DNA of 64,000 bases from a bacterium (GTDB lineage Bacteria > Patescibacteriota > Microgenomatia > Curtissbacterales > GWA2-41-24). The notes beneath the pieces are model-generated. The model was not told where the DNA came from. It ran no database searches and worked only from the letters and a program-made list of their open reading frames with translations. This document shows, one piece after another, positions 23,872 through 59,603 of this stretch. The first letter of the stretch is position 1. Each line of letters opens with the position of its first letter. The position numbers were made by a program, and so were the translations under genes. The stretch lies in NCBI GenBank assembly GCA_021813125.1, contig JAKALT010000004.1:7941-71940 (forward strand). The letters are read 5' to 3'.

Positions 23872-24059
23872 GACAAAGGAATCTTAACGACTGAAAATTA
23901 GTTAATAAATTAATATTTGGTGCGGGGAAGTGTAGTTTGAATCTACCACTGTGCCGCAAGGGTAAACAAGTCCCAGTACCGCATCAAATTTTACTAAATC
24001 CCGAGCAGGATAATCGTCTAAATAAACGACTTTAACCTTCTTGGGATCAAGGAGGTTTT

Positions 24060-25331
24060 TTGTTGAAGGAAGCAAATGTTTGTCTGTTGAAGGCCGATGA
24101 TCCCTGCTACCGGAGTGAGGTAGAAGTTGACAGGTTCTCGGTAACGCCTCTAGAACCCGATGAGGCTGACCTGGCGTTTAGGCCGTCTCTTATTAAGCAT
24201 CGCTACAGTGAATTTATAAACTACGGATTTAATGAATTCGAATCATATTGCCGTACTTATAATTTGACCAGGAGTGATTTAACTTCTTACTTTTTGGAAC
24301 AATTTGCCAAAAAAAATTTGGTTGGTTTTGAATACCATTTTGAAACGACAGATGATGGGTCGGTTAATATGGTTTCCACCCATTACGAACAGTCTGGTGA
24401 CGTCTGCGATAGCTTCGCAAGAGCTCGAGACGAAAGGCGATTGGCTGGCTTAGATTCCTCACGTGAGGAGGCAGAGCTTGAAGGTGTAAGAAAGATAAAA
24501 TCAGAACTTCTACAAGAGGGAAAAGATGCAACTGTTCTTTTGGTAAGCAGGCCTCCTGAAAAAAATCAAAACCGTCCCGGTTATGCCGGCTACAGTTTCA
24601 TTTATTTTGGAAAATACGATACCAAGACCGGAAATCTGCCAATGTATGCTTGGAGAAATTACATGACAGTAGACGAGCAAAATGAGTTACGAAGAGAATT
24701 TTTAGGCTTTGAAACAGAGAAAATGAAGGATGCAAACGATTTTTTAAGAAATCCGGCTTTTTCCTTTGGAGAGGAAGGGAATTATGCCTTTGACAGATTA
24801 AGATTTCGGGCAGGAAAAGAAGTAGCAGATCTTTACGATTACAGGTCTGAAGTTGTTGATAGAGCTGCAAAGGAGCTTGTCGATCTTGCGGAAGCAGGGG
24901 TAAGCGATTGGCGTATGAACATCGCCCAAGCAAATATCGAACTTGATTTTATTGAGGCAATTGAAGGAAAACGCAGTTTAAAGTTAGAACCTTCGTCTAA
25001 AACGGAAAGTTTTAAATCCGATGCGGAGGCTTACGGATATATGGTGGCTAGAAAGAAAGATATGGAATCAAAATATAATTTGGCTTCTTATTCGGGTGGA
25101 GGCTGTGGGCGATCAATATTTGCTTCGGTTGGCGGTGAGGCCGAAGGCGCAATAGGTTTGATACCGACACTTGCTATTTCTGATTTGCACTTAAACGGTC
25201 GGGAATATTCAGCGAATTTTAATTGCCCGAAGTGTAACGGAAAGATTATATCTGGACGAGGAATTACCACTTGTCCGCACTGTGGATTTACCAAAGAACA
25301 AGCGGCCAAAGAAATGGGAATTGCCTGCTAG
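24060..25331 (+). CDS. Hypothetical protein with a C-terminal zinc ribbon
   Basis: 423 aa. The C-terminus CPKCNGKIISGRGITTCPHCG is a CxxC...CxxC ribbon. Confidence 0.4.
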   Translation: MLKEANVCLLKADDPCYRSEVEVDRFSVTPLEPDEADLAFRPSLIKHRYSEFINYGFNEFESYCRTYNLTRSDLTSYFLEQFAKKNLVGFEYHFETTDDGSVNMVSTHYEQSGDVCDSFARARDERRLAGLDSSREEAELEGVRKIKSELLQEGKDATVLLVSRPPEKNQNRPGYAGYSFIYFGKYDTKTGNLPMYAWRNYMTVDEQNELRREFLGFETEKMKDANDFLRNPAFSFGEEGNYAFDRLRFRAGKEVADLYDYRSEVVDRAAKELVDLAEAGVSDWRMNIAQANIELDFIEAIEGKRSLKLEPSSKTESFKSDAEAYGYMVARKKDMESKYNLASYSGGGCGRSIFASVGGEAEGAIGLIPTLAISDLHLNGREYSANFNCPKCNGKIISGRGITTCPHCGFTKEQAAKEMGIAC

Positions 25332-44222: not shown

Positions 44223-44229
44223 ATTTTGT

Positions 44230-44642
44230 GGAGATGCCGGGTATTGGGCCCGGGTCCAGAATTACAATTTGTAAACATCTACAAGCTTAGTTTATCTATT
44301 AAATCTTGCCGCAATTTAAAACCGATAAACAGGATAAATTTTGGCAAAGACCAAATTTTTGCCCACCCGTTTGGTCAAAACGACTGGACTATCCCGGCTG
44401 AGTTATTGCCCAAAAAGTTCCACCGGGAAAAAACTTTAAGGACAAGCCTTATTGCTACTTAAAAATTGTTAAGCAGCTAAAAAGGCTGGAGCTGCGCTAG
44501 GAGCAAATGCGCTCCTAATAAACGCAATTCCTTGTGCAATTTTAGATTTTGCACGTAATTTTGAACCAAAGCCTGACGCGCTTTAGATTCGTATTCGGCT
44601 TGCAGTTTGTCAAAGTGCGATCCTGTCGAAACAATACATCCC
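44230..44642 (-). ncRNA. ssrA: Putative tmRNA (ssrA)
   Basis: The minus-strand 5' end GGGGATGTATTGTTTCGACAGG resembles the tmRNA 5' end GGGGCTGATTCTGGATTCGACGGG. An internal reading frame ends ...GCT CCA GCC TTT TTA GCT GCT TAA, giving a tag ...APAFLAA*. The 3' end CATCTCCA pairs with the 5' GGGGATG. The gene is adjacent to smpB. Confidence 0.5.
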
Positions 44643-44699
44643 CAGGAAGCGAAATTATAGCAAAGAATAGATCTATTTTCAAAATTGATATCATGAATT

Positions 44700-46531: not shown

Positions 46532-46591
46532 CAGCTCTGCTTTAATTATACAGTTGAAGGCTTGATGTCGATCGAGGGACTTTGTTGAGTG

Positions 46592-46676
46592 CGGAGAGGG
46601 TGGGATTCGAACCCACGGTAGCTTGCGCTACAGTCGTTTTCAAGACGACCGCACTAGTCCACTATGCGACCTCTCC
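46592..46676 (-). tRNA. tRNA-Ser(TGA)
   Basis: Minus-strand reading GGAGAGGTCGCATAGTGGACTAGTGCGGTCGTCTTGAAAACGAC-(long variable arm)-GTGGGTTCGAATCCCACCCTCTCCG. The anticodon loop is CTTGAAA with discriminator G. Confidence 0.8.
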
Positions 46677-46682
46677 AAATAG

Positions 46683-46772
46683 CGGAGGAGGTGGGATTCG
46701 AACCCACGTGAGCCGTTTATAGGCTCGCGAGTTTAGCAAACTCGTGCAATGGACCAGCTATGCGACTCCTCC
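46683..46772 (-). tRNA. tRNA-Ser(GCT)
   Basis: Minus-strand reading GGAGGAGTCGCATAGCTGGTCCATTGCACGAGTTTGCTAAACTCG-(long variable arm)-GTGGGTTCGAATCCCACCTCCTCCG. The anticodon loop is TTGCTAA. Confidence 0.8.
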
Positions 46773-47381
46773 TTGAGAACAAAAACCTTCAAAAATGCCT
46801 AGTAATCTAAGTTGTATTTTATTGTCTATATACCTTAGGCTGCACGTACCAGGATAATTTTGACGTTTCATTTTACCACGCGGTTGTGTTACTGTGGGCT
46901 TTAAAAATTTTCCGGTTGGTATTTCCAACAAACGGCTCCAGTATTTTATAAGTTTTGAATAGGTATGGGTATTGTGTATTTGAAGTTGAACGCGAAGTTT
47001 ATTCTCATCAAGTTTGAACCCTTTCCTTAAAAGAAAGAGGAAAGTTTTAACCAGGCTAGGGTCGCTATTTACAAAAGCTATTATGTTTGTTGCAGGGTAT
47101 TTTGCGCCTTCACAACCATATAAAAGTGCAGCGAGAAATTTGGCCATATCGCTAGATATTGCTTTTTGTTCCGGGACTAAATTTAAGTCAAGGCGTTTAG
47201 TTTTCTCTCTGCGTAATTTGTTATTAGTGATAAGAGATTGTTTTCTGTCAATTCTCAGATCAATGCACCAATTTCTAACACTACTGGAAGGTACATTTAA
47301 CAATTTGCTTATCTCGTAAAGAGAAAGTTGTTTTTCCCTTAGTTCTCGTGCTTCAGAGACAACTGAACTCGGGTATTTCAT
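46758..47381 (-). CDS. HTH-domain protein with a single degenerate LAGLIDADG-like motif (homing-endonuclease-related?)
   Basis: 207 aa. The N-terminal HTH reads LSLYEISKLLNVPSSSVRNW. The motif KFLAALLYGCEGAK resembles one LAGLIDADG block. It lies next to the tRNA-Ser pair, and its last 15 nt overlap tRNA-Ser(GCT). Confidence 0.35.
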   Translation of the reverse strand: MKYPSSVVSEARELREKQLSLYEISKLLNVPSSSVRNWCIDLRIDRKQSLITNNKLRREKTKRLDLNLVPEQKAISSDMAKFLAALLYGCEGAKYPATNIIAFVNSDPSLVKTFLFLLRKGFKLDENKLRVQLQIHNTHTYSKLIKYWSRLLEIPTGKFLKPTVTQPRGKMKRQNYPGTCSLRYIDNKIQLRLLGIFEGFCSQGGVA

Positions 47382-47518
47382 TGGATTAACTGCACGGTTT
47401 TAGTATATCATTATCTTTGCTTTTAGAAGAAAGGCTAGCTGTGTTCTGAATTTAGCTAGGTCGAACAAAAGTCAGAACCAATTTTGGGATTTTGTGTTAA
47501 ACTCTAAATATAACTGCC

Positions 47519-48094
47519 GTGGCGAAGTTTATAAGAAATAACCCTGAACTTGACAGCGAACCGCAGCGGATTCTTTCCAAAGAAGAACTTGATACAAAGC
47601 ATCAAGTAGCACTTGAGGCAAAAACAATTATTTCATGGAAATCCCCTGTGAGAGTTTTTAAAGCCAGATCCCGTCAATATTTTATTAAAGTCGGGCTTTA
47701 TGGGTTGGTTTTTATGCTGGCGGCTATCGCGTTTGGAGAGTTTCTGTTGGTTGGTGTAATAATGGCCGTTATTTTTCTGGTGTATGTTTTGGCCTCCGTT
47801 GCCCCTGAGACAATTGATCATAGGATTACCGGTATGGGAATTGTATCCGGGGACCGATCGTTTTTATGGGATGATTTGGATTCGTTCTGGTTTGATAGGC
47901 GTGGTGACGACAGGCTTTTGGTTGTACAAACTAAACTGCGATTTCCATCGAGACTGATTATCCTTTTGACGACGGTTTCCGAGCGGGCGCTTTTGGATAT
48001 TTTAGAAAAGCATCTGCATTACCACAGAGGGCCTGTGCATACTTTATTTGATAAGTGGGCTTTATTCTTACAGGAACGAGTCAATTTGGAGTAG
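47519..48094 (+). CDS. Hypothetical protein with two central TM helices
   Basis: 191-aa ORF. Its 3' end is tandemly duplicated in the downstream spacer. Confidence 0.4.
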   Translation: MAKFIRNNPELDSEPQRILSKEELDTKHQVALEAKTIISWKSPVRVFKARSRQYFIKVGLYGLVFMLAAIAFGEFLLVGVIMAVIFLVYVLASVAPETIDHRITGMGIVSGDRSFLWDDLDSFWFDRRGDDRLLVVQTKLRFPSRLIILLTTVSERALLDILEKHLHYHRGPVHTLFDKWALFLQERVNLE

Positions 48095-48257
48095 CCCACT
48101 TGCAGTCCTCGGCTTTGCCTGCGGGTCTAAAGTGGGCGTTATTCCTTCAGGAAAGAGTCAATCTAGAGTAGCCAACGACCTCACTTAGCTTACTGAAGCA
48201 AATTCTCGAATATAATTAGAAAAAGTTTGGCGCAAAAGTTATAATTAGCACGCATTT

Positions 48258-48331
48258 GCGCCCATAGCTCAATTGGATAGAGCACAACCTTGCGGAGGTT
48301 GCGGTTGGGGGTTCGAGTCCCTTTGGGCGCA
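48258..48331 (+). tRNA. tRNA-Arg(GCG)
   Basis: GCGCCCATAGCTCAATTGGATAGAGCACAACCTTGCGGAGGTTG...GGGGGTTCGAGTCCCTTTGGGCGCA. The anticodon loop is TTGCGGA. Confidence 0.7.
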
Positions 48332-48339
48332 CAGATAGG

Positions 48340-48429
48340 GGAGGCGTCGCATAGTGGACTAGTGCGGTCGTTTCGAAAACGACTATCGGGGCAACTCGAT
48401 CAGAGGTTCGAATCCTCTCGCCTCCGCCA
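48340..48429 (+). tRNA. tRNA-Ser(CGA) with an encoded CCA
   Basis: GGAGGCGTCGCATAGTGGACTAGTGCGGTCGTTTCGAAAACGAC-(long variable arm)-AGAGGTTCGAATCCTCTCGCCTCCGCCA. Confidence 0.8.
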
Positions 48430-48432
48430 GGT

Positions 48433-48864
48433 ATGAGATTAGCTATAGTTTGCAGCCTCACATTTTTTTTGGAGGCCGGCGAAATTAAAAGGAAACTGGA
48501 AGAAAAAGGCCATAGTGTGAGCCTTCCATATTCAGTAGAGAGACTTCTAAAGGGAGAACTAAAGATTGAAAAGATTAATAAAATGAAGCAGGATGGAAGT
48601 TTCAATAAATACGTCAGATCGAATGATTTAATCAGGCGAAATTGGATAAGGATGAAAAATGATGATGCTATTCTGGTTATTAATTTGGAGAAGAAAGGTA
48701 TTAAGGGATATGTCGGCGGTAATACTTTTCTTGAAATGGGGTTAGCTTTTGTAAACCACATGAAGATTTTCTTATGGGACCCGATTCCAAATATGGAGTA
48801 CTCGGATGAAATACACTCTATGGATCCTGTAGTTATAAATGGAAATATCGATCAGGTTATGTAA
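48433..48864 (+). CDS. Hypothetical protein, possibly nucleoside 2-deoxyribosyltransferase-like
   Basis: 143-aa ORF starting right after the tRNA. It resembles small Rossmann-like proteins (ILVINLEKKGIKGYVGGNTFLEMGLAF), but the call is uncertain. Confidence 0.3.
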   Translation: MRLAIVCSLTFFLEAGEIKRKLEEKGHSVSLPYSVERLLKGELKIEKINKMKQDGSFNKYVRSNDLIRRNWIRMKNDDAILVINLEKKGIKGYVGGNTFLEMGLAFVNHMKIFLWDPIPNMEYSDEIHSMDPVVINGNIDQVM

Positions 48865-48901
48865 ATATTAAAAAATTCTCCGTATTTGATAGAATTTTAT
48901 T

Positions 48902-49198
48902 GTGGAGTATTTCCGAAATAAGGTTGTTAATGTTGTTGTAATTTTCGCCGCTTCTTTTTTTGTTGGTGCGCAATGGCCGAGAACAGAAATTGACCGACAA
49001 GCGTGGGGCTTCCCCTTTGTTTATAAATGGGTAATGAAGCCCGAATTCACTTTTCCCGAGCAAATAAACTCGCACTTCAGCCTTTTTTTTCTGGCGCTTA
49101 ATGTTCTTCTTCTGTTTTTGGCGGGGATTATGACCTGGTTTCTTGTAAGCTGGGCAATTTGGTTTATTCGGCAGATTACATATAAAATCAGCGCTTAG
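48902..49198 (+). CDS. Small membrane protein (hypothetical)
   Basis: 98 aa with two or three TM helices. It is preferred over the overlapping minus-strand ORF, which is K/R-rich low-complexity sequence. Confidence 0.3.
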   Translation: MEYFRNKVVNVVVIFAASFFVGAQWPRTEIDRQAWGFPFVYKWVMKPEFTFPEQINSHFSLFFLALNVLLLFLAGIMTWFLVSWAIWFIRQITYKISA

Positions 49199-49239
49199 TC
49201 TCCGCACGAAAATTCCCTATCTGGTAAAATCTTGCTGTT

Positions 49240-49665
49240 ATGGTTAAACGCGTATTTTCGGCCGGCGGGATAGTAATAAAAATAGAAGATAGTGTTATAA
49301 AAGTTCTAGTGACCCAACACTCCGGACACCACGGATGGGATTTTCCAAAAGGCCATTTGGAAGCTGGTGAAAGTAGCGAGCAAGCAGCTCTGAGGGAGGT
49401 TGAGGAGGAAACCGGTGTCCGCGGGAAGATTTTGGAGAAAGTTGGGCAAACACAGTATTTTTACTTTGAAGAGAGCCAGAAAGTTTTTAAGACAGTAACG
49501 TTTTTTTTGATGGAATATATTTCCGAAGGCAAAGCTTCAACAGCGTTTGAGGTAAGTGATAAAGTTTGGCTTCCGGTTGGCGAGGTTGAGAAAAAATTGA
49601 CATTTAAGGACACAAAAAGACTTTGGGAAGAGGCAAAAGAAAAGATCGGGGAGTTAAACTATTGA
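49240..49665 (+). CDS. NUDIX hydrolase
   Basis: The Nudix box GHLEAGESSEQAALREVEEETGV fits GX5EX7REUXEEXGU. Confidence 0.75.
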   Translation: MVKRVFSAGGIVIKIEDSVIKVLVTQHSGHHGWDFPKGHLEAGESSEQAALREVEEETGVRGKILEKVGQTQYFYFEESQKVFKTVTFFLMEYISEGKASTAFEVSDKVWLPVGEVEKKLTFKDTKRLWEEAKEKIGELNY

Positions 49666-49689
49666 TTTCGGGTTTAATTCGGAATAAAA

Positions 49690-50448
49690 TTGATTGTGAA
49701 ATCAAACCTATTAAAGTATCCTCTTAAAAGTCATAGAAAAGAAATTTTAATTCCTCAGGAATCTGTATATCTTGCAGAGTTCATGGGAATTGTTTTTGGA
49801 GATGGGGGAATTAACAATGATTGGCAACTGGTTATATCTTTGAATAGTGAACGAGACCTTGAGTACAGCAAGTACGTAGTTAAACTTATTAAAACCCTTT
49901 TTAGTCTCGAAATTTCTATAAGAAAAAGACCAAGACAGAATACACTTGTAATCGTTTGTTCGAGTATGAATTTACTCGATTTTTTAATTGAAAAAGGGGC
50001 GGTTAAGGGTAATAAAATCCGACAAAAATTCGATATTCCTAAGTGGATAAGTGGGAACAGTAGTTATGAAAAGGCGTTTGTAAGAGGAGTGGTTGATACT
50101 GATGGATGTTTATATACCCACAAACATAAGGTTGCAGGTAAGGTCTATACAAATATAGGATTTTGTTTTGCAAGTTCTTCGCCACCTCTTTTAAAAAGTG
50201 TTGGGAATATACTTCGTTTGGTGGGAATCGAACCACACATTAAGTATGAGAAAAATAGTATCTATTTGTATAGCAGTAAAGCCGTGTTAAAATATCTTCA
50301 AATTTTTGGATCTTCCAATCCTAGAGTCTTAAATAAGTATATAAACTGGAGAGGTGCTGGAGTGGACGATCAGGCAGACCTGGAAAGTCTGTATAGCCGC
50401 AAGGTTATCGTGGGTTCGAATCCCACCCTCTCCGCTTTAAATAATTAA
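49690..50448 (+). CDS. Double-motif LAGLIDADG homing endonuclease family protein; the ORF runs through a tRNA-Ser gene
   Basis: Motif 1 is LAEFMGIVFGDGG and motif 2 is FVRGVVDTDGCL. The last roughly 33 codons are encoded by the tRNA-Ser(GGA) sequence (...VIVGSNPTLSA). Confidence 0.6.
   Translation: MIVKSNLLKYPLKSHRKEILIPQESVYLAEFMGIVFGDGGINNDWQLVISLNSERDLEYSKYVVKLIKTLFSLEISIRKRPRQNTLVIVCSSMNLLDFLIEKGAVKGNKIRQKFDIPKWISGNSSYEKAFVRGVVDTDGCLYTHKHKVAGKVYTNIGFCFASSSPPLLKSVGNILRLVGIEPHIKYEKNSIYLYSSKAVLKYLQIFGSSNPRVLNKYINWRGAGVDDQADLESLYSRKVIVGSNPTLSALNN
50348..50434 (+). tRNA. tRNA-Ser(GGA)
   Basis: GGAGAGGTGCTGGAGTGGACGATCAGGCAGACCTGGAAAGTCTG-(long variable arm)-GTGGGTTCGAATCCCACCCTCTCCG. The anticodon stem is CAGAC/GTCTG and the loop is CTGGAAA. 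Confidence 0.7.
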
Positions 50449-50875: not shown

Positions 50876-52732
50876 ATGGATCAGAAGGACGAAGTTAAAA
50901 GCAAGGTTGATATTGTTGAGGTAATCTCATCCTATGTTCCCCTTAAAAAAGCCGGGCGAAATTTTTCGGGATTGTGCCCATTCCATAGCGAAAAGACGCC
51001 TTCGTTTATGGTTTCTGCCGAGCGGCAGGTTTTTAAATGCTTCGGGTGCGGTGAATCCGGCGACGTTTTTACATTTTTGGAAAAAATTGAGGGTTGGGAA
51101 TTTCGAGAATCACTTGAGGAGCTTGCCTCGCGGGTTGGGGTAAAGCTTAAATCATTTGCTCCGAGTGCCCAGTCGAGGGAAAAGGAGAAAATTCTAGCGA
51201 TAAATGAACTGTCCGGCAAGTTTTACGGGCATATTTTAAACAAGCACGGGTTGGGTGAGAGAGCCAGAAAATATTTGGAAGACAGGGGTGTCAAGCCAAA
51301 GGCATGGGCAGATTACGGGTTGGGTTTTGCACCGGCCGGGTGGCAAAATCTTCTGGACTTTTTGGTAAAACGCGGTTTTTCGGGGGCTGATATTGCGGCA
51401 TCGGGTTTGGTAATCGCAAGACAAGGGTATAGCAAAGAAGGAGAGTCATTTTACGACAGGTTCAGGGGCCGGTTGATTTTTCCCTTGAAGGATGCGAGGG
51501 GAGTGATACTTGGTTTTTCGGCAAGAGTGATAGACGATGCAACATTTGACAAGAAACAAGAGACAAGAAACGAGCCGAAGTATGTTAATTCACCGGAAAC
51601 TCCGGTTTTTAACAAAGGCTCTCTTCTTTTCGGGTTGGATGTTGCCAAAACCTCAATTCGCAGTAAAAACGAAGCCCTTTTGGTGGAAGGTGAATTTGAT
51701 GTTATATCGGCCCACCAGGCAGGTGTTGAGAACGTCGTAGCTTCCAAGGGTACGGCTTTAACCGAAAAGCAGGTAGCGCTGGTTTCGAGGATGTGTGAGA
51801 ATGTGGCGCTTTGTTTTGACGGCGATATAGCAGGTGATGCGGCCGCAAGGAGAGGAATTGAGCTTTTGGATATGGCAGGTGTTTTAGTCAAAGTGGTCAA
51901 ACTTGGTAAGTTTAAAGACCCGGATGAGTTTATTAAAAGCGATAGCGCCGGTTTTAAAAAAGCAATTAGTTCTGCCGAAAATATTTACGATTTTTATATA
52001 GAGTCTGCGCTTTCACGGTTTGACGGCACGACGGCTGAGGGCAAAAAGAAAATCGGGGGAGAAGTGCTTGGAGTCTTTGCAAAAATTTCAGACGATATGG
52101 TTCGGGCCCATTACATCGAGAAGCTTTCAAGGGTATTGGATTTGGATGTTGGTCTTGTTGCCCAGGCGGTCGAAAAACGTTTGCCTGCAGGGGTTATTGA
52201 ATCCGGGCAAGCTTCATCTTTGGGAGGTACAGGTAGCAAAGACGGAGCGAGTTTGGAAAGGTATTTTTTGGCACTTTTAGTTTCCGGGGATAGTTTGGAG
52301 ACAGAAGTTTTGGGTTTTTTGAATAATGACGATTTTAGTGACACACGGGCAAAAACTTTCTTTATTTGGCTTCATGATATAATAACTGCTCCAAAGAGAA
52401 GAAAAGGGAAACAATCGACCAAAAAAACTTTGCTTAGCCAGAAGAGTTTAGCAGTTCTTTTGCGTAAGCTGCCTTCTGATTTAGCAAGTTTTGTTGATGA
52501 TTTATTTCTTCTTAATATAAGCCCGGCACTTTCAGACAAGGATTTATGGACTTCTGAGGTGAAGGGTGTTTCTGGTAGGATAAAACGTATAGCTTTAAAG
52601 AGAAAGCTCGGGGAGCTTTCCCATGATATAAAAATTGCAGAAGCGAGATCTGATGTTCGTGAAGCCGCAATTTTAACGAAGAAGTTTAGTGAACTTTCGA
52701 AAACTTTAAAGGGAGGTTTAAATAATGCCTAA
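50876..52732 (+). CDS. dnaG: DNA primase DnaG
   Basis: The CHC2 zinc finger reads [30 protein letters not shown]. The Toprim region reads [16 protein letters not shown]...[12 protein letters not shown]. Confidence 0.85.
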
Positions 52733-53852
52733 GAAGGCAGCAAGTCAAAAAACAAAGGAAGAAAAGACCGGGAAAAATATCGATGTAAAAGCCGAGATTA
52801 GAAAGCTTTTGAAGCGTGGCCGAGAGCAGGGATTTATCGCTCAAGAAGACGTTTTGGCAATTTTCCCAGCACCGGAGGATTCAATTGCCGAAATAGATGA
52901 ACTTTTCCATAGATGCCTTGAAGAGGGTATTGACGTTTTTGACACTACGGAAATCGACGTTTCAGATGCAACAAAGTCGGTAACAGAACTAGAAAAGGAG
53001 CTGGAGAGCCTGGCTTCTTTGGAAGAAGGTTATCTTTCGGATCCGGTGAGGATGTATCTTAGGGAAATTGGCCGTGTTTCACTTTTGACATATGAAGAGG
53101 AAGTTTCTTTGGCAAAGAGAGTTGAGAAATCTGACAGACGAGCCCGCGAGAAACTAATCAACGCCAATTTAAGACTTGTTGTTTCCATTGCCAAAAAATA
53201 TGTTAACCGGGGCTTGACGCTTTTGGATTTGATTGAGGAGGGAAACATTGGTTTGATGCGGGCGGTTGCCAAGTACGACTGGAGACGCGGATATAAGTTT
53301 TCGACTTATGCAACATGGTGGATCAGGCAGGCAATAACCAGGGCGATTGCCGACCAGGCAAGGACGATTCGGATTCCGGTTCACATGGTTGAGACAATTA
53401 ACAAATTCAACCGTGTTTCCAGAAAGCTGATGCAGGAGTTGGGGAGGGAGCCAACGCCCGAAGAGGTGGCAATGGAGATGGAAGTGCCGCCGGAAAAGGT
53501 TAGAGAGATTATCAAAGTTTCGCAGGAACCGGCATCTCTGGAAGCACCGGTTGGAGAGGAAGAGGATTCAAGGCTTGGGGATTTTATCCAGGATGCTTCT
53601 GCAGGCCCAACAGACCAGGCGACGCAGGCGCTTTTAAAAGATGACATCCGCGAAATGCTGGCGACCCTTTCTCCGAGAGAAGCCAAGGTTTTGGAATACC
53701 GGTTTGGACTTGAGGACGGTAAGCAGAGGACACTGGAGGAAGTAGGCAAAGAATTTGGTGTGACCCGCGAGCGAATCAGGCAAATTGAGGCTAAGGCTAT
53801 CCGCAAACTAAGGCATCCCACCCGGGCGAAGAAGCTAAGGGATTACCTTTAA
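52725..53852 (+). CDS. rpoD: RNA polymerase sigma-70 factor RpoD
   Basis: Region 2 reads [54 protein letters not shown]. Region 4 reads [29 protein letters not shown]. Confidence 0.9.
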
Positions 53853-58701: not shown

Positions 58702-59038
58702 ATTTTTTATTTTAGCAGATTATTGTAAAAGTTCACGTTTATGTCTAAAATTTGCAACATGAGGGCTGAGAGACCTTTAAGTGTATTGTCTGCTGTTGCC
58801 GCGATTGGAATTGCTATTTTACCGGCAGATAATGCGACTGCTCGCAAAACTCCAGGCGGGGAGACGATGATTTTACGTCAGGGTGTCATGCCGCCAGAAG
58901 ATAGGCTAAAGCCAAAACTTCCGGGAAAACTAAAACTTGAGCCAAAAACCACTTAATTGAAGCAGTGATTGCTTCATGTTAAAATCACATCTGCACTTTG
59001 ACAATCCGCGATAGCTCAATGGTAGAGCGTCCCGCTGT

Positions 59039-59554
59039 GAAGATTTATTTGGTATACTCAAGTGTGTATGCCAGATAAGAGAACTTATGCTGACCGCGCC
59101 GAATATTTAAAGCGAGCAGTTACAAAGCGAAGAAGAAAGCTTAAACAACTGGTTGTCGAATACAAAGGCGGTAAGTGCATTCTTTGTGGGTATAACAAAT
59201 CAATGTGGGTTCTCGAATTACACCATGTTGATAGCAGTACTAAAGAATTTAATATGTCTGTTAGGGGTTTAACTCGTTCTTGGGAAAAAATCAAAGCAGA
59301 AGCAGACAAATGTATTCTTGTATGTGCAAATTGTCACAGGGAAGTGCATGCAGGCATTACGCAGCTCCCGAAAGAAATTTTCGGGATGAAAAATCGGGCT
59401 AATTCGGGGAAACCCTGAAACGGGTAATCCCGAGCTAAATGCACGTTCATGTAAACTGAACGTACTAAATGTGTAGAGACTATATACCCGGGGCCTAAGT
59501 CAAAAGATATGGTCATGAGATAGTCCACTCCTTTTGGTAACAAGAGGGTTTGTG
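59039..59554 (+). mobile_element. Putative group I intron within the tRNA anticodon loop, carrying an HNH homing endonuclease ORF
   Basis: A 516-nt insertion separates two perfectly complementary tRNA halves. The 5' exon ends in U and the intron's final nucleotide is G, which are group I splice-site conventions. It contains a 118-aa HNH ORF. Confidence 0.45.
59062..59418 (+). CDS. HNH endonuclease (intron-encoded)
   Basis: CILCGYNKSMWVLELHHVDSSTKEFNMSVRGLTRSWEKIKAEADKCILVCANCHREVHAG contains the CxxC...HH...CxxCH HNH motif. Confidence 0.7.
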   Translation: MCMPDKRTYADRAEYLKRAVTKRRRKLKQLVVEYKGGKCILCGYNKSMWVLELHHVDSSTKEFNMSVRGLTRSWEKIKAEADKCILVCANCHREVHAGITQLPKEIFGMKNRANSGKP

Positions 59555-59603
59555 TAACGGGAGGGTTGTAGGTTCGAGTCCTACTCGCGGAGCAAATTTT
59601 TGT

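What the first reader, a model, noticed from the sequence alone, without database searches (positions are those of the whole stretch)
59005..59592. tRNA gene, probably Asn(GTT), split in the anticodon loop by a roughly 516-nt group-I-like intron carrying an HNH endonuclease
The two tRNA halves are perfectly complementary in the acceptor and anticodon stems. The insertion follows a U and ends with a G, which matches group I splice-site rules. Inside the insertion is a 118-aa HNH endonuclease ORF. Splicing after U35 yields the loop CUGUUAA, which together with discriminator G fits Asn. Group I introns in bacterial tRNA genes are known for only a few isoacceptors (Leu, fMet, Arg, Ile), so a Asn(GTT) or Thr(UGU) host would be unusual.
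Basis: partly seen in the sequence, partly recalled or inferred. Interest (0 to 1): 0.7.

Follow-up and report, generated by a model that had tools for sequence, protein, structure and literature searches.

The report
Intron-split tRNA-Asn gene with homing endonuclease
This is a real asparagine tRNA gene of a tiny-genome (Patescibacteria) bacterium, interrupted in its anticodon loop by a self-splicing group I intron that carries its own DNA-cutting "homing" enzyme; this kind of element was published in 2025-2026, so the locus is a good new example, not a discovery.

Summary
The tRNA gene spans 59005-59592 (+) and is split by a 516-nt insertion (59039-59554). The insertion is a group I intron: Rfam Intron_gpI scores 66.7 bits against a gathering score of 50. 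It has a U•G pair at the 5' splice site, a terminal G, and helices P1-P9.

The host is tRNA-Asn(GUU), split between positions 35 and 36. It is not tRNA-Thr(UGU), which is what ARAGORN calls. Close relatives carry an uninterrupted tRNA-Asn(GTT) at the same chromosomal position. Of 120 metagenomic tRNAs sharing its T arm and acceptor stem, 103 are intronless Asn and none is Thr.

A 116-aa HNH endonuclease gene (59068-59418) sits in the P1 loop. Its last codons overlap P1' through P5.

The host organism is Curtissbacteria-like (Patescibacteria). tRNA-Asn 35/36 group I introns in this phylum, some carrying HNH genes, were described and shown to self-splice in vitro by Nakagawa et al. (mSystems 2026; preprint 2025). 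Williams listed the type in 2020.

Side observations go beyond those papers. The HNH family occurs in at least 552 species genomes. It also occurs free-standing beside tRNA-Asn genes, and it carries a conserved extended -10-like motif.

The parts
58957..58985 (+). Promoter-like site for the tRNA gene (TTGAAG-17-TAAAAT, with TG before the -10 hexamer). It ends 20 nt upstream of the tRNA 5' end.
   Evidence: Consensus scan only. That it is the tRNA promoter is inferred.
59005..59038 (+). tRNA-Asn(GUU) 5' exon: acceptor 5' strand, D arm, anticodon stem 5' strand, and loop nucleotides C32 U33 G34 U35.
59039..59554 (+). Group I intron, 516 nt, from G(+1) to the terminal G at 59554.
   Evidence: Rfam RF00028 at 66.7 bits; boundary reading conserved in 62/62 loci; pair counts; alignment to in-vitro-validated introns.
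59034..59039 (+). P1 5' strand (GCUGU|G). U59038 forms the U•G wobble at the 5' splice site.
   Evidence: Read by hand. The same GCUGU/GCAGC pairing is present in the validated intron of GCA_016700035.1. The pair is invariant, so no covariation is possible.
59050..59058 (+). Extended -10-like motif TGGTATACT, 9 nt upstream of the HEG start codon. Candidate internal promoter giving a near-leaderless HEG mRNA.
   Evidence: Motif TGnTAnAnT is present in 33/74 related loci versus 2.4% of control 40-mers, with modal spacing 9-10 nt. It also precedes free-standing copies. Promoter function is inferred.
59068..59418 (+). HNH homing endonuclease gene (116 aa plus stop; alternative GTG start at 59062) in the loop of P1. 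The last ~19 codons overlap P1', P2, P3, P4 and P5.
59360..59365 (+). P1 3' strand / internal guide sequence (C GCAGC). G59361 pairs with U59038. It also encodes part of the conserved protein motif T-Q-L.
   Evidence: GCAGC is invariant in 41/41 aligned introns.
59366..59386 (+). P2 hairpin (UCCCGAAA / UUUCGGGA) with a GAAA-type loop.
   Evidence: Recovered by MFE folding; compensatory changes in the four WIN-class sequences.
59394..59398 (+). P3 5' strand (UCGGG). It pairs with 59487-59491 (CCCGG).
   Evidence: Compensatory changes: WIN UCGGG/CCCGG, L006 UCAGG/CCUGA, L009 and L019 CCAGG/CCUGG.
59403..59434 (+). P4 (59403-59409 with 59428-59434), J4/5 AAA, P5 (59413-59415 with 59422-59424), J5/4 UAA.
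   Evidence: P4 is paired in 96% of cells, with 5 of 7 pairs changed on both sides. P5 is paired in 88% of cells.
59435..59471 (+). P6 region with a 7-bp P6a hairpin (59443-59449 with 59457-59463).
   Evidence: MFE fold. The hairpin is absent in L006 and variable in other loci.
59476..59482 (+). P7 5' strand (G A-bulge GACUA). It pairs with 59521-59526 (UAGUCC). This is the presumed guanosine-binding helix.
   Evidence: All six pairs are invariant in 41/41 sequences. The binding-site role comes from general knowledge of group I introns.
59487..59491 (+). P3 3' strand (CCCGG). It follows P7 after only 4 nt, so there are no P7.1/P7.2 hairpins.
59492..59514 (+). P8 hairpin containing CCUAAG...UAUGG, which resembles the 11-nt GAAA-tetraloop receptor.
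   Evidence: Read from the sequence. The helix covaries. The receptor reading rests on my recall of the Azoarcus intron and was not tested.
59521..59526 (+). P7 3' strand (UAGUCC).
59529..59548 (+). P9 hairpin (UCCUUUUG GUAA CAAGAGGG) with a GNRA loop.
   Evidence: 7 of 8 pairs show changes on both sides. Also recovered.
59554..59554 (+). Terminal G of the intron (omega G).
   Evidence: Invariant in 41/41 sequences and present in 62/62 loci.
59555..59592 (+). tRNA-Asn 3' exon: U36 A37 A38, anticodon stem 3' strand, variable loop, T arm, acceptor 3' strand, discriminator G59592. No encoded CCA.

Best explanation
The locus is the tRNA-Asn(GUU) gene of a Curtissbacteria-like member of the Patescibacteria. 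It is interrupted between anticodon-loop positions 35 and 36 by a compact 516-nt group I intron.

Proposed mechanism:
1. The gene is transcribed as one precursor, probably from the promoter-like site at 58957-58985.
2. The ribozyme folds. P1 is formed by exon GCUGU plus the first intron G, paired with CGCAGC at 59360-59365. P2-P9 lie in 59366-59548.
3. An external guanosine attacks after U59038.
4. The terminal G59554 then takes the same site, and the exons are joined to give the anticodon loop CUGUUAA.

The 116-aa HNH protein encoded in the P1 loop is a homing endonuclease. It most likely cuts intronless tRNA-Asn genes, such as those found at the same locus in relatives, so that repair copies the intron in. 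It appears to have its own extended -10 promoter. Its 3' end is translated through P1'-P5, so translation and ribozyme folding on one RNA molecule should exclude each other.

Shown here: the sequence features, homology, covariation, the insertion site, and the presence/absence polymorphism.
Shown by others, for homologues only: accurate self-splicing in vitro.
Inferred: splicing of this particular copy, endonuclease activity and target, and promoter use.
For: Intron identity:
- Rfam Intron_gpI hit at 66.7 bits against a gathering score of 50.
- On 41 related introns, 75.8% of cells are paired versus 64.7% in shuffles (0/500 shuffles reach the observed value). The covariation score is 0.296 versus 0.05-0.18 when partners are slid by 1-3 columns. 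P4, P5 and P9 covary and P7 is invariant.
- P2, P3, P5, P8 and P9 show compensatory changes among the four closest cores.
- The core is collinear with, and 67% identical to, the tRNA-Asp intron of GCA_001029755.1. It is 56% identical to the tRNA-Asn intron of GCA_016700035.1. Both of those splice accurately in vitro.

Host tRNA and splice site:
- CTGT|...G|TAA holds in 62/62 loci.
- 103 of 120 tRNAs with the same T arm and acceptor are intronless Asn, and none is Thr. The best is 70/72 identical.
- The syntenic tRNA after the SIMPL gene is an intronless tRNA-Asn(GTT) in L206, L209 and L211, whose RpoD is 97, 93 and 92% identical to the window's.

Host phylum:
- The best named RpoD hits are Candidatus Curtissbacteria, at 88-92% identity.

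Endonuclease:
- PHROG HNH families match at E = 1e-31.
- The CxxC...HH...CxNCH..H motif is invariant in 30 homologues.
- The protein is 56-66% identical to the intron-encoded HNH proteins in the published set.
- Against homologues, pN is 0.13-0.19 while pS is 0.65-0.94, which indicates purifying selection.
- About 70 of 80 genomic homologues lie in the same P1-loop position of a split tRNA-Asn.
Against: - There are no RNA data for this organism, so splicing of this copy is inferred.
- A P10 pairing is not evident. Only a 3-bp UAA/UUA pairing with a 1-nt offset is possible, and it is not conserved across loci.
- P6 proper is at most 1-2 bp.
- Pfam HNH (PF01844) scores below its cut-off: 15.4 against 21.4 bits.
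- Fold matches are all HNH nucleases but weak: best E = 0.076, model pLDDT 71.6.
- MFE folding recovers P2, P6a and P9 but not the P4/P5 and P7 pairings of the hand model.
- I could not check whether the genome has a second, intronless tRNA-Asn. None is in the window.
- The MAFFT alignment is poor for P2, P3 and P8 across the different core classes. For those three helices, support rests on the four WIN-class sequences, plus an MFE fold for P2.
Confidence: 0.9

Rival explanations
1. The host is tRNA-Thr(UGU), with the intron between positions 33 and 34 (splice after CU, 3' exon UGUAA). This is what ARAGORN calls.
For: This boundary also has a U before the 5' site and a G at the 3' end in this window, because the sequence GU/UG is repeated at both junctions.
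Against: - In related loci the Thr reading would often need an intron ending in A or T, for example L011, L006 and L034. The Asn reading keeps U(-1) and the terminal G in 62/62 loci.
- In the P1 model, U35 is the base that pairs with G as a wobble. U33 pairs with A.
- All 103 intronless tRNAs with this T arm, acceptor stem and discriminator G read CTGTTAA.
- The syntenic gene in relatives is Asn(GTT).
- Nakagawa et al. sequenced the spliced product of homologues, found 35/36, and describe this exact miscall.
Confidence: 0.02
2. The element is a decayed insertion. The ribozyme no longer splices, and the split gene is a tRNA pseudogene inactivated by a homing-endonuclease cassette.
For: There is no expression or splicing data for this organism. 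P10 and P6 are weak. The rest of the genome, which might hold another tRNA-Asn, could not be examined.
Against: - All core helices and all positions that are invariant in 41 relatives are intact, and the Rfam score is above the gathering score.
- The exons are undamaged: every stem is perfect, and the spliced tRNA is 70/72 identical to intronless alleles.
- The locus is the syntenic and apparently regular tRNA-Asn locus of this lineage.
- Nakagawa et al. report that genomes rarely hold both an intron-containing and an intronless copy for the same anticodon.
Confidence: 0.05
3. The intron splices, but the HNH protein no longer acts as a mobility factor. It would be either an immobile passenger or retained for another role, for example helping splicing or acting on other DNA.
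For: [quoted passage not shown] Endonuclease activity and target are untested. Strong purifying selection is also compatible with a host-beneficial role.
Against: - The catalytic and zinc-binding residues are all conserved.
- The protein is 74-79% identical in the nine representative MAGs compared, which carry several different Patescibacteria labels, while synonymous sites are saturated.
- Close relatives lack the intron at the same locus.
- The same gene is found in three different ribozyme core classes and free-standing next to tRNA-Asn genes. This pattern is what an active mobile gene would produce.
Confidence: 0.15

Closest known systems
Group I introns at position 35/36 of tRNA-Asn(GUU) in Patescibacteria (Nakagawa, Amikura, Omae, Suzuki; mSystems 2026, PMC13011429; bioRxiv 10.1101/2025.07.03.662931)
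   Same: - Same phylum, same tRNA and same insertion site.
- Same P1 pairing (GCUGU/GCAGC).
- Same ARAGORN Thr(UGU) 33/34 miscall.
- Same HNH family, 56-66% identical, in the same place in the intron-bearing cases GCA_016699425.1, GCA_001029735.1 and GCA_000503835.1.
   Different: - This copy is from a draft Curtissbacteria-like MAG (GCA_027346405.1) that was not in their set of complete genomes.
- Its ribozyme core lacks the two hairpins between P7 and P3' that the published tRNA-Asn introns I examined have.
- This combination of core type plus HNH gene in tRNA-Asn is not among the published rows I could read.
tRNA-Asp(GUC) 35/36 intron of GCA_001029755.1 (Microgenomatia), shown to self-splice in vitro by Nakagawa et al.
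   Same: It is the closest ribozyme core. It is collinear and 67% identical over 197 aligned positions. It has the same J3/4-P4-J4/5 sequence (GGCUAAUUCGGGGAAACC) and the same GUGUAGAGACUAUAUACC segment, and it also has no P7.1/P7.2.
   Different: It sits in tRNA-Asp, has no endonuclease gene (196 nt), and its P8 is a plain hairpin.
[quoted passage not shown]
   Same: A bioinformatic catalogue that extended intron-split bacterial tRNAs from 4 to 21 cases. According to Nakagawa et al. it includes the type 'Asn.4Ug', with the splice after the fourth loop nucleotide, U before it and G at the end. This is the same type as here.
   Different: It has no experiments, and the text I could read contains no analysis of the endonuclease.
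Classical bacterial tRNA group I introns: tRNA-Leu(UAA) and tRNA-fMet of cyanobacteria, tRNA-Ile of Azoarcus, tRNA-Arg of Agrobacterium (from my own knowledge and the introduction of PMC13011429)
   Same: Self-splicing introns in the anticodon loop. The core is compact, with P3' directly after P7. A GNRA loop on P9 and a receptor-like motif in P8 resemble the Azoarcus architecture, which I am recalling, not testing.
   Different: - The insertion positions differ: 34/35, 33/34 and 36/37.
- Those introns are classed IC3, whereas the Patescibacteria ones were classed IA by Nakagawa et al.
- The endonucleases differ: the cyanobacterial tRNA-fMet intron carries a PD-(D/E)XK enzyme and tRNA-Arg(CCU) introns carry LAGLIDADG enzymes.
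Free-standing homing endonucleases that target intron insertion sites ('collaborative homing', cyanophage psbA; recalled from the literature, not read here)
   Same: In 10 of 80 related loci the same HNH gene lies outside the intron, next to a tRNA-Asn gene that is either intronless or carries an endonuclease-less intron.
   Different: This does not apply to the window itself, where the gene is inside the intron. Action in trans is untested.

Membership tests
Group I intron (Rfam RF00028) | Covariance-model score at or above the curated gathering score | tested here: met
   66.7 bits against 50, E = 1e-14, model positions 1-253.
Group I intron (Rfam RF00028) | U at -1 forming a U•G wobble in P1 with an internal guide sequence | tested here: met
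   U59038 pairs with G59361 within GCUGU|G / CGCAGC. The GCAGC strand is invariant in 41 relatives. There is no covariation because the anticodon loop is invariant.
Group I intron (Rfam RF00028) | Terminal G (omega G) before the 3' splice site | tested here: met
   G59554. It is conserved in 62/62 loci.
Group I intron (Rfam RF00028) | Conserved core helices P3-P9, including the P3/P7 pseudoknot, supported by covariation | tested here: met
   P4 is 96% paired with 5/7 pairs changed on both sides. P5 and P9 covary and P7 is invariant. P3 and P8 covary among WIN, L006, L009 and L019 only.
Group I intron (Rfam RF00028) | P10 pairing of the guide sequence with the 3' exon | tested here: inconclusive
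   Only UAA/UUA with a 1-nt offset is possible, and it is not conserved among relatives. The in-vitro-validated homologues also lack an obvious P10, so this is not disqualifying.
Group I intron (Rfam RF00028) | Guanosine-dependent self-splicing | not testable with these tools
   Shown in vitro for homologues in GCA_016700035.1 and GCA_001029755.1, not for this copy.
Patescibacteria tRNA-Asn(GUU) 35/36 introns (Nakagawa et al. 2026) | Host genome belongs to Patescibacteria | tested here: met
   The RpoD encoded in the window is 88-92% identical to proteins named Candidatus Curtissbacteria. Homologues of the endonuclease mostly carry Patescibacteria-group names or are unnamed; some MAGs carry other phylum labels.
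Patescibacteria tRNA-Asn(GUU) 35/36 introns (Nakagawa et al. 2026) | Exons form a tRNA-Asn(GUU) matching intronless homologues when joined at 35/36 | tested here: met
   70/72 identity to intronless L103. 103 intronless Asn and no Thr among tRNAs with the same body. Intronless Asn at the syntenic locus in L206, L209 and L211.
Patescibacteria tRNA-Asn(GUU) 35/36 introns (Nakagawa et al. 2026) | Ribozyme homologous to the published introns | tested here: met
   56% identity to the validated Asn intron and 67% to the validated Asp intron, collinear with the latter.
Group I subgroup IA (assignment given to the Patescibacteria tRNA introns by Nakagawa et al.) | Extra hairpins P7.1/P7.2 between P7 and P3' (as I recall the definition of IA), or a match to subgroup covariance models | tested here: not met
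   Only 4 nt (UAUA) separate P7 from P3' in the window, while most relatives have about 40-60 nt there. Subgroup covariance models were not available, so the formal class is open. I do not assign a subgroup.
HNH (beta-beta-alpha-Me) endonuclease | Catalytic His-His...Asn...His motif with flanking CxxC zinc ligands | tested here: met
   C37, C40, H52, H53, C86, N88, C89, H90 and H94 are invariant in 30 homologues. PHROG HNH families match at E = 1e-31.
HNH (beta-beta-alpha-Me) endonuclease | Pfam PF01844 above its gathering score | tested here: not met
   15.4 bits against 21.4, E = 0.02. One homologue cluster (P0098) carries a precomputed PF01844 hit.
HNH (beta-beta-alpha-Me) endonuclease | HNH fold | tested here: inconclusive
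   AlphaFold model pLDDT 71.6. The 34 best Foldseek PDB hits are all HNH-type nucleases (Cap5, Cas9 HNH domain, T4 endonuclease VII, Gme HNH), but the best E is 0.076. The profile search hits the group II intron maturase endonuclease domain 6me0 at E = 0.004.
Homing endonuclease (functional class) | Cleaves the intronless allele near the insertion site and promotes intron gain | not testable with these tools
   Indirect evidence only: presence/absence polymorphism at the orthologous locus, purifying selection, and wide distribution.

The most novel reading that the evidence does not exclude
The HNH gene may be an autonomous cassette with its own promoter that moves independently of the ribozyme. 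In the related loci it sits in the P1 loop of at least three structurally different ribozyme cores. It also occurs free-standing next to tRNA-Asn genes that are intronless or carry endonuclease-less introns. It is present in at least 552 species genomes and is under strong purifying selection.

If it also acts in trans on endonuclease-less introns, then tRNA-Asn introns of Patescibacteria would be much more mobile than the published survey of complete genomes concluded. That survey found 4 endonuclease-bearing introns and judged horizontal transfer 'likely infrequent'.
Probability: 0.4. Interest if true: 0.5.

Novelty: new member of a known kind. Interest (0 to 1): 0.27.

Why it matters
For this window, the practical point is annotation. 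Standard tools either miss the gene (default ARAGORN) or call it tRNA-Thr. As a result the genome would appear to lack tRNA-Asn, and completeness estimates would suffer. The literature already makes this point.

The locus adds a draft-genome example in Microgenomatia that combines the compact ribozyme core, previously seen in the spliced tRNA-Asp intron, with the HNH gene. Close relatives have the same locus without the intron, which is the raw material for studying gain and loss.

The wider pattern seen while checking it is a testable lead on how these introns spread in a phylum with very small genomes. That pattern consists of the very common HNH family, its free-standing copies beside the target gene, and the conserved promoter-like motif.

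Tried and rejected
- **Default ARAGORN** finds nothing at the locus. With introns allowed it gives Thr(UGU), which I rejected on comparative grounds.
- **Pfam on the ORF** gives nothing at E <= 0.01 and only sub-threshold HNH hits at E <= 10. I used PHROGs and the alignment motifs instead.
- **My first regex for split tRNAs** required perfect stems and missed most loci. I replaced it by normalising the ARAGORN calls.
- **The Rfam alignment** places a 'P1' at 59326-59370 inside the ORF. I rejected it in favour of the exon-containing P1, which matches the validated homologues.
- **The MAFFT alignment of 41 cores** misaligns P2, P3 and P8 because the cores fall into different length classes. Their low paired percentages (62, 52 and 25%) are alignment artefacts, not evidence against those helices. 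I checked them in the four-sequence alignment.
- **MFE folding** does not reproduce P4/P5 or P7, as expected for a pseudoknotted ribozyme.
- **Fold search** gave only weak E-values.
- **IC3 (Azoarcus-like) assignment:** I considered it because the core lacks P7.1/P7.2, but did not adopt it. The nearest relative was grouped by Nakagawa et al. with introns they class as IA, and I had no subgroup models.
- **Prophage or integrative-element origin of the insertion:** rejected for the window. A serine-recombinase island abuts the tRNA-Asn in relatives L206-L208, but nothing comparable is in the window.
Full report
**1. The observation**

The sequence at 59005-59592 contains two halves of a tRNA. 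The 5' half is 59005-59038: TCCGCGA-TA-GCTC-AATGGTA-GAGC-G-TCCCG-CTGT. The 3' half is 59555-59592: TAA-CGGGA-GGGTT-GTAGG-TTCGAGT-CCTAC-TCGCGGA-G. All four stems pair perfectly.

Default ARAGORN reports five other tRNAs in the window and nothing here. With introns allowed, it reports a split tRNA with a 516-nt intron.

Rfam's group I intron model matches 59322-59547 at 66.7 bits, against a gathering score of 50 (E = 1e-14).

An ORF runs 59062-59418 (118 aa from GTG). The start used by the gene caller and by all homologues is ATG 59068, giving 116 aa.

**2. Which tRNA, and where exactly is the intron?**

Because GU/UG is repeated at both junctions, two readings satisfy the U(-1)/terminal-G rule in this window:
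- Splice after U33, giving Thr(UGU).
- Splice after U35, giving Asn(GUU).

Four lines of evidence settle it for Asn.

(a) I fetched 80 genomic loci that encode relatives of the ORF. In the 62 with a long split tRNA, the reading CTGT|...G|TAA is possible in all 62. The Thr reading would often need an intron ending in A or T.

(b) The only U that faces a G in the P1 pairing is U35. The pairing is GCUGU|G at 59034-59039 with CGCAGC at 59360-59365. The same GCUGU/GCAGC pairing is seen in an intron whose spliced product has been sequenced.

(c) A metagenome scan for the window's 3' exon body (TAA, ten free bases, then the T arm, acceptor strand and discriminator G) returned 120 stretches. Of these, 103 are uninterrupted tRNAs. 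All 103 read CTGTTAA and none reads CTTGTAA. The closest, L103, is 70/72 identical to the window's spliced tRNA.

(d) The RpoD gene of the window (52725-53852) has relatives at 97, 93 and 92% identity on long contigs. In those contigs the gene order RpoD-YfhO-...-SIMPL is kept. The tRNA right after the SIMPL gene is an intronless tRNA-Asn(GTT): L206 15685-15757, L209 16842-16915 and L211 14691-14763.

The intron is therefore 59039-59554, between positions 35 and 36 of tRNA-Asn(GUU). The orthologous locus is polymorphic for its presence.

**3. Anatomy of the intron**

By hand, guided by the Rfam alignment and relatives:

| Element | Coordinates | Notes |
|---|---|---|
| P1 | 59034-59039 with 59360-59365 | The whole ORF lies in its loop |
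| P2 | 59366-59386 | 8 bp, GAAA-type loop |
| P3 | 59394-59398 with 59487-59491 | |
| P4 | 59403-59409 with 59428-59434 | |
| J4/5 | between P4 and P5 | AAA |
| P5 | 59413-59415 with 59422-59424 | |
| P6a | 59443-59463 | Hairpin |
| P7 | 59476-59482 with 59521-59526 | Bulged A |
| P8 | 59492-59514 | Contains CCUAAG...UAUGG |
| P9 | 59529-59548 | GUAA loop |
| Terminal G | 59554 | |

On a 41-sequence alignment, the named structure has 75.8% of cells paired, against 64.7% in shuffles (0 of 500 shuffles reach it). Its covariation score is 0.296, against 0.05-0.18 when partners are slid by 1-3 columns.
- P4 is 96% paired, with five of seven pairs changed on both sides.
- P5 and P9 covary.
- P7 is invariant.

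P2, P3 and P8 score poorly there. This is because MAFFT cannot align cores of different length classes. Among the four closest cores (WIN, L006, L009, L019) they show clean compensatory changes. For P3 these are UCGGG/CCCGG, UCAGG/CCUGA and CCAGG/CCUGG.

A P10 pairing is not evident.

MFE folding gives z = -3.8. It recovers P2, P6a and P9 but not the pseudoknotted core.

**4. Core classes**

The related introns fall into at least three length classes. Most have about 40-60 nt, forming two hairpins, between P7 and P3'. The window, L006, L009 and L019 have only UAUA there. A third set (L012, L015, L039 and others) is also short but has different P3/P4 sequences.

The window's class is not new. 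The same core sequence is present in the supplementary table of Nakagawa et al., in two tRNA-Asp(GUC) 35/36 introns of Microgenomatia. One of them (GCA_001029755.1) is the construct they spliced in vitro.

The window core is collinear with that intron and 67% identical to it. It is 56% identical to the spliced tRNA-Asn intron of GCA_016700035.1.

I could not run subgroup models, so I leave the IA/IC label open.

**5. The ORF**

Sequence-family evidence:
- Pfam gives only a sub-threshold HNH hit.
- PHROG HNH families match at 1e-31.
- The alignment of 30 homologues keeps CxxC, HH, CxNCH and H invariant.
- A profile search of solved structures hits the endonuclease domain of a group II intron maturase and McrA.
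- An AlphaFold model (pLDDT 71.6) matches HNH nucleases, but weakly, with best E = 0.076.

Distribution and conservation:
- The family is large: 3456 clusters at E <= 1e-3.
- At least 552 species-representative genomes encode it. Those with phylum-level names are mostly Patescibacteria lineages.
- The window protein is 56-66% identical to the HNH proteins of the published endonuclease-bearing tRNA-Asn introns.
- Against nine homologues, nonsynonymous differences are 0.13-0.19 per site while synonymous sites are saturated at 0.65-0.94. This indicates purifying selection.

The ORF's last ~19 codons run through P1', P2, P3, P4 and into L5. The conserved peptide I-T-Q-L-P is encoded by AUU ACG CAG CUC CCG, which is the guide sequence and the start of P2. 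The stop codon is the UGA in the P5 loop.

**6. Host**

The window comes from MAG GCA_027346405.1. Named RpoD relatives at 88-92% identity are Candidatus Curtissbacteria, that is Microgenomatia within Patescibacteria.

**7. Comparison with what is known**

Nakagawa et al. (mSystems 2026, PMC13011429; preprint July 2025) analysed 95 complete Patescibacteria genomes. They report the following:
- 15 tRNA-Asn(GUU) and 3 tRNA-Asp(GUC) genes have group I introns at 35/36.
- ARAGORN and tFind often miscall these as Thr(UGU) or Ala(UGC) at 33/34.
- Two examples splice precisely in vitro, and a terminal G-to-C mutant does not.
- Four of the tRNA-Asn introns carry HNH genes.

Williams (2020 preprint) had already extended intron-split bacterial tRNAs to 21 cases. 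Per Nakagawa et al., that list includes the type 'Asn.4Ug'.

The window's element meets every testable membership feature of this group. Its argument for interest, that only Leu, fMet, Arg and Ile hosts are known, is out of date.

**8. Mechanism**

The most likely mechanism is standard group I self-splicing, which restores tRNA-Asn, combined with endonuclease-driven homing into intronless tRNA-Asn alleles. Each step is marked as shown, shown for homologues, or inferred in the Best explanation section. The rivals are Thr host, dead pseudogene and inactive endonuclease. I rate them at 0.02, 0.05 and 0.15.

**9. Things seen on the way that go beyond the papers**

(i) The endonuclease-bearing form is very common in draft genomes. 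About 70 of the best 80 loci have the gene in the P1 loop of a split tRNA-Asn.

(ii) In 10 of the 80 loci the same gene is free-standing:
- Just upstream of a tRNA-Asn that carries an endonuclease-less intron: L009, L019, L024, L038 and L059. Rfam confirms the intron in L009, L019 and L024.
- Next to an intact tRNA-Asn: L014 and L042.
- Downstream of, or divergent from, an intron: L032, L036 and L072.

(iii) An extended -10-like motif (TGGTATACT in the window, 59050-59058) lies 9-10 nt before the start codon in 33 of 74 loci. It occurs in 2.4% of control 40-mers. It also precedes the free-standing copies.

Together these suggest a self-contained endonuclease cassette that moves independently of the ribozyme. 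I give this reading a probability of about 0.4.

**10. Verdict**

The feature is real and was interpreted correctly. It is a new member of a recently published kind. Interest for the window itself is low to moderate. The side observations are leads, not results.

Noticed in passing
window 59050-59058; L006-L085 upstream of each HNH start: A conserved extended -10-like motif (TGGTATACT / TGnTATAAT) lies 9-10 nt before the endonuclease ATG in 33 of 74 loci, against 2.4% of control 40-mers. It also precedes free-standing copies. This suggests an internal promoter and a near-leaderless mRNA.
   Followed up: partly
L009 1501-2141, L019 1501-2147, L024 1501-2155, L038, L059: The same HNH gene lies free-standing 30-100 nt upstream of a tRNA-Asn gene whose group I intron (175-244 nt) has no endonuclease gene. 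Rfam confirms the introns in L009, L019 and L024.
   Followed up: partly
L014 1501-1969; L042 1306-1794: The HNH gene lies next to an uninterrupted tRNA-Asn(GTT): upstream of it in L014 and downstream of it in L042. In L042 and L036 a short copy of the tRNA 3' end (..CCCGCGGAGC) follows the HNH gene, which looks like a target-site or attachment-site repeat.
   Followed up: no
alignment A2 of L006-L084: One endonuclease family is associated with at least three different ribozyme core classes at the same tRNA-Asn site: with two hairpins between P7 and P3' (the majority), and two compact classes without them. The protein (74-79% identical in the nine loci compared) is better conserved than the RNA around it.
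   Followed up: partly
L206-L208, 15685-21128: In the closest relatives (RpoD 97% identical), a large serine recombinase gene (562 aa) and small phage-like genes, including a LexA-like repressor, abut the 3' end of the intronless tRNA-Asn. This suggests an integrated element using this tRNA gene. Their tRNA-Asn is also only 56/72 identical to the window's.
   Followed up: no
L087, L098, L105, L129, L135, L136, L145, L198: Metagenomic tRNA-Asn genes with the same T arm and acceptor carry introns of 259-575 nt that end in ...ACCG|TAA. This 3' end differs from the window's class. I did not examine them further.
   Followed up: no
window 59366-59386 and 59492-59514: The window and L006 have a GAAA loop on P2 together with a CCUAAG...UAUGG (receptor-like) motif in P8. 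L009 and L019 have GUAA on P2 and a plain P8 helix. This is consistent with an L2-P8 tertiary contact that covaries, but it rests on four sequences and on recall of the Azoarcus intron.
   Followed up: partly
window 44226-44643 (-): tmRNA gene (Rfam 111.7 bits), next to an SmpB gene in the syntenic loci.
   Followed up: no
window 23908-23989 (+): AdoCbl-II cobalamin riboswitch match (41.8 bits against a gathering score of 36.5), upstream of the ORF at 24060-25331.
   Followed up: no
window 46591-50435: Cluster of four tRNA-Ser genes (tga, gct, cga, gga) and tRNA-Arg(gcg). The cluster is conserved in the syntenic loci of relatives.
   Followed up: no
window 58741-58956 (+): A 71-aa ORF with no Pfam hit lies between the SIMPL gene and the tRNA-Asn promoter-like site. 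It is called as a gene in the source records, and relatives have a different small ORF there.
   Followed up: no
window 59435-59441 and 59465-59471: The heptamer CTAAATG occurs twice, flanking the P6a hairpin. L006 has a single copy and no hairpin, so P6a may be an insertion with a duplicated junction.
   Followed up: no
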